From: an uncultured Candidatus Saccharibacteria bacterium | GTDB lineage: Bacteria; Patescibacteriota; JAQUNI01 | Direction: 5' to 3' | NCBI GenBank assembly: GCA_964555185.1 | Contig: CAZKRD010000001.1 | Coordinates: forward strand, 34,185 to 98,184 | Length of the DNA stretch: 64,000 bases | Part shown: positions 6,930 to 56,901 of the stretch, one piece after another | How the letters are laid out: every line of letters begins with the position of its first letter | Numbering within the stretch: position 1 is the first letter of the stretch | Made by a program: the position numbers and the translations under genes | The notes under the pieces: model-generated | The model's database searches: none | Told to the model about the DNA's origin: nothing | What the model saw: only the letters and a program-made list of their open reading frames with translations

Positions 6930-7065
6930 AGTGTTAAATTCCCTGCCTACGCTCACGAGCTTCGGCAGGCGAGGCAAATTTCAAACACTCGCCTTGCGGC
7001 TTGGCTCGCCTAAGCTAGGCGAAGCGGGTGCCTGTAATTTGACATTTGTAATTTTAGAGGATTAT

Positions 7066-13129: not shown

Positions 13130-13262
13130 CATATATAGAAATAAGTTGTCATTGCCCGTAGGGGTAGGTCTTGCTTGCCTTGCCCCGCTTAGCCTGCGAG
13201 GCGGACGGTAGGCAGATGTCTACCCTGCCCGGGCGACCACGCGGGGTCGCCCCTACATTTAG
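13130..13262. repeat. Family C: GC-rich hairpin element (cccgtagggg ... ggggtcgcccctac), copy 1.
   Basis: Shares termini with the copies at 17011-17160 and 53247-53340. Much higher GC than its surroundings. Confidence 0.6.
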
Positions 13263-16801: not shown

Positions 16802-16896
16802 TTATTTTAATCTGCGCTGGAAAGTTAAGAGATTGCATCCAATTGATTGAATTATAGCATATTTTTTGGTTACAACAAATTTGTGGTATAATTAGA

Positions 16897-17160
16897 AGTG
16901 AGGAGAAAGTGAAATTCCTTTTCACTTTATCCGAGCAAGAATTTCAAGCTTGCTTATAATTAGAAGTGAGGAGAAAGTGAAATTCCTTTTCACTTTATCC
17001 GGGATTATTGCAATGGCCCGTAGGGGCGGACCCATGCTCGCCTCGCTGGCGAAGCGGGTGTCCGCCCGTTGTTGGTAAACCAAGAGTAGGGCGACCACTC
17101 ACCTACGCCAAGGCTCTGGCGGGCGGGCACGGGGTCGCCCCTACGAATTGTTACATCCAA
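16897..17160. repeat. Composite family-C repeat: two 47-bp direct repeats (tataattagaagtgaggagaaagtgaaattccttttcactttatccg) followed by a GC-rich hairpin element with CGTAGGGGCG inverted termini.
   Basis: Direct repeats at 16897-16943 and 16965-17011, separated by the palindrome agcaagaatttcaagcttgct. GC-rich body at 17023-17150 ends in ggggtcgcccctacg. Related copies at 13130-13262 and 53190-53345. Confidence 0.7.
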
Positions 17161-17193
17161 GAGCGACCGTTATTATTTAAACCTTAACTCTTT

Positions 17194-22805: not shown

Positions 22806-23447
22806 ATGTATTTGAATTCAGATCCTAAAACCTCCGCCTTCGCCAAAGGCGGACGAGCGGACAGGCAAATTTCAAACCACACCCGCCAGAGGGGCTTCAC
22901 TTTGATTGAGGTTTTGGTTGCGGTTGCTATTGGCACTTTGATTATTTTGTTGACGTATGTCTCGTATGATCTTGTGATCCGTCTGACCGAAAGAGAGAGC
23001 AGGAAAATTGAACTTGTCCAAAACGGACGGGTGGCTTTGGATCGGATCACTCGGGAAATCCGGCAGTCTGATGATCTGGTAACCATTCTGCCGGAGACAG
23101 CAGACGATCCTCTAGACCCGCCCCCTGCCGAGATTATGTTTCAAGATGGCCATAGTTTGGATCCAATCAGCTATCTCCGTTATTATTTGGACGAAAATTT
23201 TCTTCATCGCGAGGTCTCTCATTATTCTTTTGACAGCGATCCAGAGATATGGGTTTATTGGGGTGCTGAAGATGAATTTGGCACCCCTGCTTCCCAGATG
23301 GTTGATCAGGATGACATTATTGCTGAATACATTGAGGATTTAATCTTCTGGGGCGGAGACCGGTTAGTGAGTATCCGTTTTTCCACTTCTTCCGGTGATG
23401 AGCAGGTAGAGTTTTTGACTAAGGTTTGCGGCAGAAACCTATGGTAG
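22806..23447 (+). CDS. Pilin-like protein with an unusually long 30-aa leader before RG|FTLIEVLVAVAIGTL. The true start is uncertain.
   Basis: The prepilin motif lies at residues 29-45. The leader-coding DNA (22830-22890) is GC-rich and shares the motif ggcaaatttcaaac with the rnc leader at 6976. Confidence 0.55.
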   Translation: MYLNSDPKTSAFAKGGRADRQISNHTRQRGFTLIEVLVAVAIGTLIILLTYVSYDLVIRLTERESRKIELVQNGRVALDRITREIRQSDDLVTILPETADDPLDPPPAEIMFQDGHSLDPISYLRYYLDENFLHREVSHYSFDSDPEIWVYWGAEDEFGTPASQMVDQDDIIAEYIEDLIFWGGDRLVSIRFSTSSGDEQVEFLTKVCGRNLW

Positions 23448-29152: not shown

Positions 29153-29264
29153 AAAATAATTAAAAGTTTAAAGTGCCTGCCTTGCCGGTAGGCAGGCAAA
29201 GTTCAAAATTTTTAACTTTAAATTCAACCTTTAACTTTGAATTTTGCACTTTAAACTAAATTAG

Positions 29265-47446: not shown

Positions 47447-48332
47447 TCTTTGAGTGATAATTAGAGTGTCACTCAAACCCTAAAAACAAAAAAGAAAAAA
47501 ACAAAAAGACACGGACGAGTAATGGAAGATAAAACAAAAAGAAAAACAAAAATTATAAAAAACAATTTGCATTTATCCTATTAGGTGTTTGACTTAATAG
47601 GAGGAAGGGCCCTTCCAAGGTTTCGTTTTATGACTGGGCATTTTAGGGGCTAATGGTCGGAAGTTTTTTGTTTATCCAGAATATTTTTTGATTTTAAATA
47701 ATTTAGCCAGTAATCGTAATTTTCCTGTTTCAGGTTCAACCTGAACTGTCACCCCTTGGAATAACCACCCCTTGGAATAATTGAGTCCCCTCTTCTTCAT
47801 TTAAATAATTAAACGTTCTGGGTAAATCATTTTTTGGTTTCAGTTGGTCTTTATTAATCTTGATGTTTTCAAGTTGATCAGGGAATATATTTTTTATTTT
47901 TAAGCCTCCTATAAAATTAAAAATAAAGACACTCCTGATTGGTTAATGCAAATCTCGTTCGGTTTGCAACTCGCCTCAAATTTTGGGTCAATTTCGAGTT
48001 GTCGTGAAATTTGAAAACTGTTTCAGTATTTTTGTGAGGAGATTTTATTTTTTTACTTGTTTGTCGCGAGAAGAAAAAGAATTCTTAAATCCACTATTTT
48101 TATTTACTCGCCGCTCACTGTTAAGACCATGGGTCTTGCCGTGTGATCCCACCGTGAATTCGGAAATACCCTCTGTCCGGTAGGCAGGCTTTGATCGTCC
48201 CTCGACAAGCTCTGGACTCGCTCGTAATGACATTTTGTGAGTTTCCAGATTCACGGATTCCACTTTTGACAATTCATTTGTTTTTTGTTTTTATTTTCAA
48301 GAACCCCTTTAGAACAATTGAGGTAATGGATG

Positions 48333-53115: not shown

Positions 53116-53189
53116 ATATCGCCACAGAGCATTTTAGACACACATAGGCACCAATTTATCTTTGAACGGTGCCTTTTTTATAATTCGCA

Positions 53190-53345
53190 GTGAGCCTGCC
53201 TGCCGGTAGGCAGGGTAGGCAGGGAGAAAGTGAAATTCCTTTTCACTTTATTCGGGATTATTGTCATTACCCGTAGGGGCAACCCTTGTGGTTGCCCGTC
53301 TGTGGCATTTGTTTAGCCGACAATGGGCAACCACAAGGGTTGCCC
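53190..53345. repeat. Family C element, copy 3: cctgcc/ggcagg hairpin, agaaagtgaaattccttttcacttt hairpin, then a 25-bp perfect inverted repeat (gtaggggcaacccttgtggttgccc) around a 27-nt loop.
   Basis: The perfect inverted repeat is visible directly at 53268-53344. Confidence 0.7.
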
Positions 53346-53494
53346 CTACAAAACCGTCCCAGACTAGGTGATATTATTGGCGCATTTAAATCAATGACAA
53401 CCTGTAGTTACATCCAAAATTAAGAATTTCGAGCTTGCTTGATTTGTCTGAATTTTGCTATATTTAAAGAATGAGAATAAGATACTAGAAACAA

Positions 53495-55425: not shown

Positions 55426-56745
55426 ATGTTAACCAAAGAATTTGACGCGGCAATTAATCAAATCTGTGATGAGAAAAGTATTGATCGCGAGGTCGTGATC
55501 AAAACAATTGAGGCGGCATTGGCCGCGGCTTATCGTAAGGATTACGGCAAGCCTGATCAGAATATTAAGACTCAATTCAATCCCAAAACAGGCAATTTTG
55601 ATATTTTTGATGTTAAGGAGGTTGTGGCCGAGGAAGAGGAGATTACTGATTCGCGCAAGCAGATTGTGCTCTCGGAGGCAAAAAAGAAAAAGAAGAGCGT
55701 CAAGGTGGGAGAAGAAATAAAAGCCAAGATTAAGCCCCCGGGAGACTACGGCCGGGTCGCGGCCCAGACCGCAAAACAGGTGATCGTCCAAAGGATCAGG
55801 GAGGCGGAAAGAAATGCCCTATTCCAGACCTTCAAGAAGCGCGAGGGCGAACTGGTTATCGGCGTGATCCAGCGGATTGAGGGCAATACCATCTTTGTTG
55901 ACTTGGGCCAGACCACTGGTTTTATTCCGATTTCCGAACAGGTATCAGGCGAGAATTATCAGATCAACCAAAGACTAAAAGTCTATATCAGCGAAGTGCG
56001 CGAGGGGTCTAAGGGTCCGGAAGTGGTATTATCCCGCACCCATCCAGAGATGATTAAAATCCTTTTCAGTTTGGAAGTGCCGGAGGTGAACGCGGGCACG
56101 GTGGAGATTAAGACCGTAGCTCGAGAGCCGGGATTAAGGAGTAAGATCGCGGTCAAAAGCAGTGATCCAGAAGTTGATCCGATCGGGGCTTGCGTGGGCC
56201 AGCGCGGCTCCCGGGTCCAGGCCGTGATCAATGAGATCGACGGCGAAAAGATTGACATTATTGAGTGGGCGAAAGACCCGGCTAAATTTATTAGCAACGC
56301 TTTAGCGCCCGCCAAAGTGGTTAACGTGGAAGTTGGTAAAGAAGATAATACAGCCAGGGTATTGGTCGAGCCGGATCAACTCTCTTTGGCGATCGGCAAG
56401 GAGGGACAGAATGTCCGTTTGGCTGCTAAATTGACAACTTGGAAGATAGATGTTAAACCAGTGCCCGTAAAGGAAGAAGAAAAGGTTGAAGTAAAGAAGG
56501 TCAAAGAGGAGAAGGAAGCAAGGAAGGAGACGGTGCAAAAAGTCAAAAATCAACCTTCGAGTCCTGAGCCTCAGGTCGAGGGAAAATCAAAAGTCAAAAA
56601 TGCCTCGCCTACCGGGAGGCAGGCAAATAAAAAATCAAAAATAAAGAAAGTAGAGAAAAAGACAGTAAAGAAGGAGAAGAAAAAGGATAAGAGGATTAAA
56701 AAAGGACCTTCTAAAGAAAAAAAGGAAAAGGAGAACAAGAAGTAA
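55426..56745 (+). CDS. nusA: Transcription termination/antitermination factor NusA with a long K/E-rich tail.
   Basis: N-terminal domain MLTKEFDAAINQICDEKSID..., S1 and KH domains (GACVGQRGSRVQAV). The tail is about 100 aa of KE repeats. Confidence 0.85.
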   Translation: MLTKEFDAAINQICDEKSIDREVVIKTIEAALAAAYRKDYGKPDQNIKTQFNPKTGNFDIFDVKEVVAEEEEITDSRKQIVLSEAKKKKKSVKVGEEIKAKIKPPGDYGRVAAQTAKQVIVQRIREAERNALFQTFKKREGELVIGVIQRIEGNTIFVDLGQTTGFIPISEQVSGENYQINQRLKVYISEVREGSKGPEVVLSRTHPEMIKILFSLEVPEVNAGTVEIKTVAREPGLRSKIAVKSSDPEVDPIGACVGQRGSRVQAVINEIDGEKIDIIEWAKDPAKFISNALAPAKVVNVEVGKEDNTARVLVEPDQLSLAIGKEGQNVRLAAKLTTWKIDVKPVPVKEEEKVEVKKVKEEKEARKETVQKVKNQPSSPEPQVEGKSKVKNASPTGRQANKKSKIKKVEKKTVKKEKKKDKRIKKGPSKEKKEKENKK

Positions 56746-56901
56746 AATGATTTTTGATTTTTTCAGCTAGTCAGAGTATATTTTTAAGATAAGAATTAAC
56801 CACGAAAGTACAAATTTCAAGAGACTAAAAGGCATTTTTGACTTTTGATTTTTGCCTGCCCGCCAAAGCCTTGGCGAAGGCGGGACTTTTGATTTTCTAT
56901 T

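What the first reader, a model, noticed from the sequence alone, without database searches (positions are those of the whole stretch)
16897..17160. MITE-like GC-rich hairpin element family with CCCGTAGGGG/CCCCTAC inverted termini and variable interiors
Three loci share the same ends but have different GC-rich interiors that fold on themselves. The interior of 53247-53340 is a perfect 25-bp inverted repeat around a 27-nt loop; the other loci are 13130-13262 and 17011-17160. Three or more related hairpin fragments lie elsewhere (6940-7040, 22830-22880, 56840-56880). They are islands of high GC in an AT-rich genome and always intergenic. Conserved ends with variable cores suit a mobile miniature element, a REP/BIME-like family, or a family of structured small RNAs.
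Basis: seen in the sequence. Interest (0 to 1): 0.8.

Follow-up and report, generated by a model that had tools for sequence, protein, structure and literature searches.

The report
REP hairpins from a decayed RayT transposase gene
The GC-rich hairpins are REP sequences, the palindromes handled by RayT (REP-associated tyrosine) transposases, and they still carry leftover codons of a broken RayT gene on their flanks, so they are a new example of a kind described in 2018.

Summary
The three loci are real. They lie at 13158-13256, 17020-17144 and 53273-53349, and each runs from GTAGGGG to CCCCTAC. They fold far better than shuffled sequence.

The shared "termini" are not transposon inverted repeats. 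They are the GTAG "foot" plus the GGGC/GCCC stem base of canonical REP units, for example GTAG-GGGCAACC-CTTGT-GGTTGCCC. These units occur singly, as inverted doublets, or in "double-foot" form.

The same units, one of them identical over 25 of 25 bases, encode the hypervariable VGATLVVA...GQPQGIAPT linker of a very large RayT family (PF01797). This family is TnpA_Y1 subclass 2.4, equal to RAYT group 4. Quentin et al. 2018 already reported for this subclass REPs with three G-C pairs at the stem base, double-foot REPs, and in-frame REP insertions inside the gene.

The 53-kb locus keeps RayT codons beside the hairpin (LGDIIGAFKSMTT; protein profile E=6e-5, DNA profile E=3e-8). The 17-kb and 13-kb loci keep shorter pieces of the same flanks. 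No intact RayT gene was found in about 106 kb sampled from this 707-kb Patescibacteria-like scaffold.

Two of the loci sit inside a separate 68-nt repeat unit.

Verdict: a new member of a known kind, of modest interest.

The parts
16887..16954 (+). Complete 68-nt repeat unit (short form): TATAATTAGAAGTGAG-GAGAAAGTGAAATTCCTTTTCACTTT-ATCCGAGC-AAGAATTTCAAGCTTGCT. It has two small hairpins.
   Evidence: The same unit, often in tandem, is in contigs L001, L002, L003 and L005; L003 is shown to be the same organism.
16955..17001 (+). 5' part of a second 68-nt unit. It is interrupted after ...TTTATCCG by the REP/RayT-remnant segment.
   Evidence: It is 40 of 41 identical to 53222-53262.
17002..17019 (+). 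Left flank GGATTATTGCAATGGCCC. It resembles the RayT codons G-I-I-A just after the HuH motif.
   Evidence: Compare the intact gene L089, GGAATTATTGCAATCG. Shared with the 53-kb locus. Not significant on its own.
17020..17067 (+). REP unit: GTAG + GGGCGGAC ... GTCCGCCC (8-bp stem, 28-nt interior containing GGCGAAGCGGG).
17086..17144 (-). REP unit read on the minus strand: GTAG + GGGCGACC ... GGTCGCCC. On the plus strand it is also footed (GTAGGGCGACC...), giving a 'double-foot' form. Together with 17020-17067 it forms the 125-nt hairpin.
   Evidence: (z=-5.1).
17145..17162 (+). Right flank GAATTGTTACATCCAAGA. GTTACATCCAA is identical to 53406-53416, the ..(C)SYIQ end of the RayT remnant.
   Evidence: 11 of 11 match, p about 0.009.
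13146..13157 (+). Left flank TTGTCATTGCCC, matching the 53-kb locus in 11 of 12 positions (TTGTCATTACCC).
   Evidence: p about 0.012.
13158..13256 (.). Double-foot element GTAGGGG...CCCCTAC. Its 3' part is a canonical REP on the minus strand (13256-13231: GTAG GGGCGACC CCGCGT GGTCGCCC). Its interior carries CGGTAGGCAG.
   Evidence: (z=-2.4).
53180..53194 (+). Start of a 68-nt unit (ATAATTCGCAGTGAG).
53195..53223 (+). 29-nt GC hairpin CCTGCCTGCCGGTAGGCAGGGTAGGCAGG, inserted into the 68-nt unit relative to all other copies. It belongs to a second motif class.
53224..53254 (+). 5' module of the 68-nt unit (hairpin AAAGTGAAA/TTTCACTTT), interrupted after ...TTTATTCG.
53255..53272 (+). Left flank GGATTATTGTCATTACCC, resembling RayT codons G-I-I-V-I.
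   Evidence: Compare L091, CGGGATTATTGTGATC. The HuH-region DNA profile itself does not hit here.
53273..53349 (.). Inverted REP doublet (REPIN-like). The arms are GTAG-GGGCAACC-CTTGT-GGTTGCCC and its reverse complement, with a 27-nt spacer. It reads VGATLVVAR...ATTRVAPT in the usual RayT linker frame.
   Evidence: (z=-9.3). The arm is identical over 25 of 25 bases to the in-gene REP of the intact RayT gene in L092.
53350..53421 (+). RayT pseudogene remnant reading ..NRPRLGDIIGAFKSMTTCSYIQN, followed by a stop codon. It corresponds to helix alpha-C of TnpA_REP.
   Evidence: RayT protein profile: E=6e-5, profile positions 110-141. RayT DNA profile: E=3e-8 at 53367-53402.
53422..53440 (+). 3' module of the 68-nt unit (AAGAATTTCGAGCTTGCTT).

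Best explanation
WHAT IT IS. The hairpins are REP (repetitive extragenic palindrome) units of the type that goes with RayT/TnpA_REP transposases of subclass 2.4 (RAYT group 4). Each unit is a GTAG 'guide' tetranucleotide at the foot of a stem. The first four stem pairs are invariant (GGGC/GCCC). The next four pairs vary with compensating changes. Units stand alone, pair up as inverted doublets, or carry a foot at both ends ('double foot').

WHERE THEY COME FROM. In intact genes of this subclass the same units sit in frame between the HuH and Tyr motifs. There they encode the hypervariable linker VGAxLVxA...APT. The loci here are non-coding leftovers of that internal gene segment: a REP cluster plus a few flanking codons (G-I-I on the left, GDIIGAFKSMTT..YIQ on the right).

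HOW THEY SPREAD (inferred). Several loci share the same truncated flank end points. The most likely history is that an already truncated REP-bearing segment was copied around the genome, while its REP content kept turning over.

MECHANISM (inferred from studied relatives). A RayT enzyme binds the folded single-stranded REP, uses GTAG to select nearby CT/CA cleavage sites, and cuts and rejoins. This moves or duplicates REP units together with variable amounts of flank.

SHOWN VERSUS INFERRED. Shown here: REP anatomy, identity with in-gene REPs, RayT coding remnants, and several copies in the scaffold. Inferred: mobilisation by a RayT acting in trans, and any present-day function.
For: (1) Anatomy. 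GTAG-footed hairpins with a GGG stem base: 5 in the window against 0.01 in shuffles. Ten REP variants align as GTAG + 8-bp stem. Four stem pairs are invariant and four covary; 98.8% of cells are paired, there are 13 double-sided changes, and 0 of 500 shuffles reach this.

(2) The gene family. At least 8000 proteins are PF01797, named 'REP element-mobilizing transposase RayT' by sources. They carry NHFH, WQRN and YIxNNP motifs and a variable VGATLVVA..GQPQGIAPT/ATTRVAPT linker.

(3) DNA of intact genes. The linker is encoded by GTAGGGGCAACCCTTGTGGTTGCCC and similar units. One arm is identical over 25 of 25 bases to the 53-kb arm.

(4) Coding remnants. The only significant RayT match in the window adjoins the 53-kb hairpin (protein E=6e-5; DNA E=3e-8).

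(5) Shared flanks. The 17-kb and 53-kb left flanks match in 40 of 41 positions, and both share GTTACATCCAA on the right. The 13-kb locus shares TTGTCATTNCCC. Loci L101a and L101b, just outside the window, share CGGGWTTATTG..TCATT and TACATYCAAAATT.

(6) More copies in the same 706,972-bp scaffold: L098:12224, L101:19748-19856 and L101:21660-21839. That gives 11 GTAGGGGC feet at 6 loci in about 106 kb sampled.

(7) Literature. PMC6006769 describes, for subclass 2.4, three G-C pairs at the stem base, double-foot REPs, and in-frame REP insertions of variable length between HuH and Y. PMC8266576 gives the GTAG-guided CT/CA cleavage on either side of the REP.
Against: - No intact RayT gene was found in the window or in about 42 kb of further sequence from the same organism. 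A present-day enzyme is therefore unproven.
- The HuH-side homology is short. A DNA profile of the HuH region does not hit the loci.
- Flank similarities for the 13-kb, L101a and L101b loci are individually weak (p about 0.01-0.035, uncorrected).
- One copy, L098:12224, shows no RayT-derived flank.
- REP units for the covariation count were partly chosen because they form hairpins, which inflates the percentage paired.
Confidence: 0.8

Rival explanations
1. Independent decay in place. Each locus is the remains of a separate full-length RayT gene copy that eroded where it stood. The REP-bearing fragment was never copied as such.
For: The 53-kb locus clearly contains gene remnants. Subclass 2.4 genes occur in more than one copy in some genomes, with a mean of 1.5 per genome.
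Against: Independent erosion should not give the same truncation end points. Yet GGGATTATTG starts the homology at the 17-kb, 53-kb and L101a loci, and TACATCCAA ends it at the 17-kb, 53-kb and L101b loci. Six loci in about 106 kb would imply dozens of former gene copies in a 0.7-Mb genome.
Confidence: 0.15
2. A classical MITE: a miniature element with terminal inverted repeats, moved by a DDE transposase and flanked by target-site duplications.
For: The ends are conserved and inverted, the interiors vary, and the locations are intergenic.
Against: The bases flanking the three loci are not duplicated (ccc|...|attt, ccc|...|gaat, ccc|...|aaaa). The 'terminal repeats' are the GTAG foot plus the stem base of REP units that also occur singly (L098:12224) and inside RayT genes of other phyla. 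No DDE transposase is linked to them.
Confidence: 0.03
3. A family of structured small RNAs or cis-regulatory RNA hairpins (terminators or mRNA stabilisers), maintained for an RNA function.
For: The hairpins are very stable and their stems covary. REPs in other bacteria can act as RNA elements (abstract of PMC3733652).
Against: No Rfam family matches. There is no terminator-like T tract and no enrichment of promoter or terminator patterns. The loci lie between divergent, tandem and convergent genes alike. Covariation is equally expected for a hairpin recognised as single-stranded DNA. The same units are translated inside RayT genes.
Confidence: 0.08
4. Chance similarity, or a simple segmental duplication of one locus.
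For: There are only three copies in the window. The 17-kb and 53-kb loci share a 58-nt flank.
Against: Footed hairpins: 5 observed against 0.01 expected. The interiors are unrelated between copies. There are further copies outside the window. The same units occur in thousands of RayT genes.
Confidence: 0.01

Closest known systems
REP sequences of TnpA_Y1 subclass 2.4 (= RAYT group 4), including 'double-foot' REPs and REP insertions inside the tnpA_REP gene (Quentin, Siguier, Chandler & Fichant 2018, PMC6006769)
   Same: GT[AG]G foot. Three G-C pairs at the stem base. Double-foot forms (GTAG...CTAC). [quoted passage not shown] The flanking gene remnant matches this subclass (GDIIGAFKSxTT); the family retrieved has NH[F]H, WQ and YIxNNP motifs.
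   Different: Here the gene is gone except for a few codons, so the REPs are 'orphaned'. The host is a Patescibacteria-like genome of about 0.7 Mb, a group not named in that paper's taxonomic summary as read here. Two copies are embedded in an unrelated 68-nt repeat unit.
REPINs of Pseudomonas fluorescens and relatives (Bertels & Rainey 2011, PMC3116915; PMC3337134)
   Same: Two REPs in inverted orientation, separated by a short spacer, form one long hairpin (the 53-kb locus and L101:19748-19856). They are thought to be the unit mobilised in trans by a RAYT.
   Different: Classical REPINs go with single-copy group 2/3 RAYTs and number in the hundreds, with near-identical copies. Here the REP type is that of group 4, copies are few and very heterogeneous, and they carry gene-derived flanks.
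E. coli REP/BIME and TnpA_REP (structure 4ER8; Messing 2012, PMC3479197; Corneloup 2021, PMC8266576)
   Same: GTAG guide tetranucleotide at the 5' foot of a GC-rich palindrome. The probable mechanism is binding of the folded single strand and cleavage at nearby CT/CA.
   Different: E. coli REPs have a bulged stem and belong to subclass 2.2. No biochemical data exist for this system.
GTAG-tagged palindromic repeat families, including intragenic REPs (Di Nocera et al. 2013, PMC3733652)
   Same: GTAG tag, frequent head-to-head dimers, and occasional in-frame location inside genes.
   Different: That survey covered cultured phyla. This sequence family (GTAGGGGCNNNC...) was not matched to any of its named families here.

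Membership tests
REP sequences (GTAG type) | 5' GT[AG]G tetranucleotide directly at the foot of a stem-loop | tested here: met
   At least nine units begin GTAG+GGGC.... 5 observed against 0.01 expected in the window.
REP sequences (GTAG type) | GC-rich palindrome of about 20-40 nt whose stem is maintained by compensating changes | tested here: met
   8-bp stems, 98.8% of cells paired, 4 of 8 pairs covary, 0 of 500 shuffles reach this. Caveat: units were partly chosen because they form hairpins.
REP sequences (GTAG type) | High copy number, mostly extragenic | tested here: inconclusive
   11 GTAGGGGC feet at 6 intergenic loci in about 106 kb sampled from a 706,972-bp scaffold. The rest of the genome could not be read.
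REP sequences (GTAG type) | Cognate tnpA_REP/RAYT gene in the genome (REPtron) | tested here: inconclusive
   Only a pseudogene remnant at 53350-53421. No intact gene in the sampled sequence.
REP sequences (GTAG type) | Binding and cleavage by the cognate Y1 enzyme on single-stranded DNA | not testable with these tools
   Needs biochemistry. The mechanism is taken from PMC8266576.
Subclass 2.4 / RAYT group 4 REP type | Three consecutive G-C pairs at the stem base; 'double foot' forms; REPs inserted in the gene between HuH and Y | tested here: met
   GGG/CCC is invariant. Double-foot forms are at 13158-13256, 17086-17144 and L101:19748-19856. In-gene REPs were seen in L088, L089, L092, L094 and L097. 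Definition.
TnpA_Y1 subclass 2.4 gene (is the 53-kb locus a gene?) | HuH motif NH[IFV]H, WQ, and Y motif YIxNNP in one open frame | tested here: not met
   The profile aligns only positions 110-141 of 205. The HuH-region DNA profile does not hit. The three segments lie in three frames. It is a remnant, not a gene.
REPIN | Two REPs in inverted orientation with a short spacer, folding into one hairpin | tested here: met
   53273-53349 has 25-nt arms and a 27-nt spacer, z=-9.3. L101:19748-19856 is similar.
REPIN | Population of many near-identical copies tied to a single-copy group 2/3 RAYT | tested here: not met
   Copies are heterogeneous in sequence and length. The associated gene type is group 4.
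MITE | Target-site duplication flanking terminal inverted repeats | tested here: not met
   The flanks of the three loci are not duplicated.

The most novel reading that the evidence does not exclude
The REP-bearing linker inside a RayT gene may act as the 'nursery' of the genome's REP population. Segments cut out of the gene, carrying a few codons on each side, would seed new loci. This orphaned population would then persist, and keep exchanging REP units, in a 0.7-Mb Patescibacteria-like genome that may no longer encode the enzyme. A related possibility is that the 68-nt unit hosting two copies is a deletion derivative of the same element (junctions ATCC-GAGC-AAGAATTTC, ATCCAAAATT-AAGAATTTC and ATCCAAGAGCGACC).
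Probability: 0.2. Interest if true: 0.45.

Novelty: new member of a known kind. Interest (0 to 1): 0.25.

Why it matters
It explains an odd-looking feature: GC-rich hairpins with the same ends and different middles. They are ordinary REP biology, so they should not be annotated as new small RNAs, MITEs or short ORFs. Several spurious ORFs such as 17008-17187 and 53286-53423 are read from them.

It also gives a small, tractable example of how in-gene REPs of subclass 2.4 RayT genes relate to free REPs. The copies here still carry gene-derived flanks. That bears on the open question of where REP populations come from, and whether they can outlive their transposase in a highly reduced genome.

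Tried and rejected
- Pfam and NCBIfam scans of the short ORFs over the loci found nothing.
- The first homologue search, with a frame-stitched 62-aa translation, found no candidates.
- Rfam gave nothing relevant, either at gathering thresholds over the window or at permissive E-values around the loci.
- A scan of genome contigs for the 21-mer of the 68-nt unit gave 0 hits. The organism has no close representative there: its GpmI is at most 50% identical to Patescibacteria and Parcubacteria MAGs.
- A viral-contig scan for RayT relatives gave only one locus.
- I tested whether the 5' module of the 68-nt unit (..ATTCCTTTTCACTTTAT..) is the decayed MPNHFH (HuH) coding region. A DNA profile of that region from seven intact genes does not hit it, so this is not supported.
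- Promoter and terminator consensus scans over the three loci showed no enrichment.
- A look-up of the ORF 1147-1722 product failed, probably because the called start differs.
- I considered that the three 'fragments' (6.9, 22.8 and 56.8 kb) belong to the same family. This is rejected because they lack the GTAGGGG/CCCCTAC feet. They do share other short GC motifs with the interiors of the 13-kb and 17-kb loci.

Full report
1. THE OBSERVATION

The exact 10-mer CCCGTAGGGG occurs three times in the window, at 13155, 17017 and 53270. Each is followed 80-125 nt downstream by CCCCTAC, at 13250, 17138 and 53343.

The segments fold much better than dinucleotide shuffles. The z-scores are -9.3 (53215-53355), -5.1 (17011-17150) and -2.4 (13140-13262). 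The 53-kb element has perfect 25-nt arms (53273-53297 and 53325-53349) around a 27-nt spacer. All three loci are intergenic.

One of them, 22830-22866, lies inside the leader of a pilin-like ORF. The window is 43% GC, with 104 GC-rich islands mostly inside genes. The loci are therefore conspicuous only against the AT-rich spacers.

2. WHAT THE 'TERMINI' ARE

Each arm is itself GTAG followed by a short palindrome:
- GTAG-GGGCAACC-CTTGT-GGTTGCCC (53 kb, both strands)
- GTAG-GGGCGACC-CCGCGT-GGTCGCCC (13256-13231, minus strand)
- GTAG-GGGCGGAC...GTCCGCCC and GTAG-GGGCGACC...GGTCGCCC (17 kb)

Hairpins with a GT[AG]G foot and a GGG stem base number 5 in the window against 0.01 in shuffles.

I aligned ten such units, from this organism and from intact genes elsewhere. 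They share GTAG plus an 8-bp stem. Four pairs (GGGC/GCCC) never vary and four covary. In all, 98.8% of cells are paired, there are 13 double-sided changes, and 0 of 500 shuffles reach this. The caveat is that units were partly chosen because they form hairpins.

This is the anatomy of REP sequences. The long hairpins are inverted REP doublets (REPIN-like) or 'double-foot' REPs.

3. LINK TO A TRANSPOSASE GENE

Next to the 53-kb hairpin one frame reads GQPQGLPLQNRPRLGDIIGAFKSMTTCSYIQN, then a stop. This reminded me of RayT-type proteins, so I built a composite query from memory. It retrieved at least 8000 real proteins. They are PF01797 Y1_Tnp, which sources name 'REP element-mobilizing transposase RayT'. 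They include members labelled Peregrinibacteria and Falkowbacteria.

These proteins carry NHFH, WQRNYYEH and YIxNNP motifs. Between HFHGII and GDIIGAFKSITT they have a linker of very variable length. It is made of VGATLVVAQN, GQPQGIAPT, ATTRVAPT and AGTRPAPT pieces.

A profile of 120 such proteins was searched against the six-frame translation of the window. It gave one significant hit, 53277-53420 (E=6e-5, profile positions 110-141). It found no intact gene.

I then read the DNA of seven intact genes. The linker is encoded by the same REP units. One of them, in L092, is identical over 25 of 25 bases to the 53-kb arm. The flanks also match: GGAATTATTGCAATCG in L089 against GGGATTATTGCAATGG at 17 kb, and ATTGGCGCATTTAAATC, which is identical in L089 and at 53 kb.

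A DNA profile of the GDIIGAFKSITT region hits 53367-53402 at E=3e-8. A profile of the HuH region does not hit the loci. The 53-kb locus reads in three different frames and lacks both catalytic motifs. It is therefore a pseudogene remnant.

4. WHAT IS ALREADY KNOWN

Quentin et al. 2018 (PMC6006769) define TnpA_Y1 subclass 2.4, which equals RAYT group 4 of Bertels et al. 2017. Its motifs are NH[IFV]H, WQ and YIxNNP. It has a variable insertion between beta3 and alphaC. Its REPs have three G-C pairs at the stem base. It has 'double foot' REPs, with GT[AG]G at one end and C[TC]AC at the other. Uniquely, it has REP sequences inserted in frame inside the tnpA_REP gene between HuH and Y.

Every structural feature of the present hairpins fits that description. 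For studied RayT enzymes, the GTAG motif and the hairpin are bound as single-stranded DNA. Cleavage occurs at CT/CA sites on either side of the REP (PMC8266576).

5. COPIES AND FLANKS

The window comes from a 706,972-bp scaffold, ENA ERZ23486238 BAEC19-1 scaffold_1. Its GpmI is at most 50% identical to Patescibacteria and Parcubacteria MAGs.

In the roughly 17 kb read beyond the window there are three more REP loci:
- a single REP at L098:12224, upstream of the 16S rRNA gene
- a double-foot element at L101:19748-19856
- a cluster of three REPs at L101:21660-21839

Contig L003 is 100% identical to part of L101 over 2112 nt, so it comes from the same organism; I take the other SDBT01 contigs (L001, L002, L005) to do so as well because they belong to the same metagenome assembly and carry the same 68-nt unit. 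In total there are 11 GTAGGGGC feet at 6 loci in about 106 kb. No intact RayT gene was found.

Flanks are shared beyond the hairpins:
- 17 kb and 53 kb match in 40 of 41 positions on the left, and share GTTACATCCAA on the right.
- 13 kb shares TTGTCATTNCCC.
- L101a shares CGGGWTTATTG..TCATT.
- L101b ends in TACATTCAAAATT, against TACATCCAAAATT at 53 kb.

Individually the p-values are 0.01-0.035. Shared truncation end points fit copying of an already truncated segment better than independent decay of full genes. This step is an inference.

6. THE 68-NT UNIT

The first 100 nt of the finding's span is a tandem duplication of a 68-nt unit: TATAATTAGAAGTGAG-GAGAAAGTGAAATTCCTTTTCACTTT-ATCCGAGC-AAGAATTTCAAGCTTGCT.

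The same unit occurs in the SDBT01 contigs L001, L002, L003 and L005, alone or in tandem, without any hairpin insert.

At 17 kb and 53 kb the REP/RayT segment sits at the same point inside the unit, after TTTATYCG. The right junctions are:
- ATCC-GAGC-AAGAATTTC (short form)
- ATCCAAAATT-AAGAATTTC (53 kb)
- ATCCAAGAGCGACC (17 kb)

These junctions suggest the short form could be a deletion derivative, but this is not proven. The unit has no Rfam match and no sigma-70 consensus. At five of six loci it lies upstream of, and co-oriented with, a gene.

7. VERDICT

The 'REP/BIME-like' option is correct. The MITE and small-RNA readings are not supported.

The element type, including its in-gene location and double-foot form, was described in 2018. 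What is new is only the instance: orphaned, flank-carrying copies in a very small Patescibacteria-like genome.

Confidence is about 0.8 that these are subclass 2.4-type REPs derived from a RayT gene linker. It is about 0.5 that they were spread by a RayT enzyme acting in trans. Interest is 0.25.

Noticed in passing
window 16887-16954, 16955-17001, 53180-53254 + 53422-53440; L001:599-674; L002:2428-2501; L003:6412-6576; L005:1714-1857: A 68-70-nt dispersed and tandem repeat unit with two small hairpins. The first hairpin pairs a GGAG (Shine-Dalgarno-like) with ATCC and encloses a GTG codon. At 5 of 6 loci the unit lies upstream of, and co-oriented with, a gene. There is no Rfam or sigma-70 match. 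Function is unknown; it may be a deletion derivative of the RayT-remnant element.
   Followed up: partly
window 6942-6969, 13206-13215, 29176-29196, 48178-48187, 53195-53223: A second class of short GC hairpins, CCTGCC..GGCAGG, carrying CGGTAGGCAG. It occurs 3-4 times against 0.05 expected. One copy (53195-53223) is an insertion into the 68-nt unit. One sits just beside tRNA-Ala.
   Followed up: partly
window 22830-22866 (ORF 22806-23447) and 56603-56628 (nusA 3' end): GC-rich hairpin sequences lie in frame inside coding regions. One encodes ..TSAFAKGGRADRQ.. in the leader of a pilin-like protein, just before GFTLIEV. The other encodes ..ASPTGRQAN.. in the lysine-rich tail of NusA. They look like in-frame insertions of REP-like elements.
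   Followed up: no
window 56840-56896: A 31-nt GC hairpin (TGCCTGCCCGCCAAAGCCTTGGCGAAGGCGG, 56853-56883) is flanked by a perfect 13-nt direct repeat, GACTTTTGATTTT (56840-56852 and 56884-56896). It looks like an insertion with a target-site duplication. It shares GGCGAAGGCGG, inverted, with 22834.
   Followed up: no
window about 24.7, 29.4, 42.2, 44.4, 54.1 kb and about 9.6, 20.5, 29.2, 40.8, 49.8 kb: Two families of AT-rich dispersed intergenic repeats, AATTTTCAATTTTCAAG... (up to 139 nt, in both orientations) and AAGTTCAAAGTT.../AACTTTGAACTTT.... Several lie next to tRNA genes.
   Followed up: no
L098:12224-12290 and L098:12540 onward; L098:14284-14724: Just beyond the window end, a single REP lies upstream of the 16S rRNA gene. 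A LAGLIDADG homing-endonuclease ORF lies about 1.7 kb into the rRNA operon, probably in an rRNA intron.
   Followed up: no
proteins P0003, P0008, P0016, P0023; L088:3001-3729: Some intact RayT genes have the in-gene REP units amplified 3-5 times (linkers of 100 aa or more). One has a further tandem 5-codon repeat (APTAFR/APTTFR). This shows ongoing expansion of the linker.
   Followed up: no
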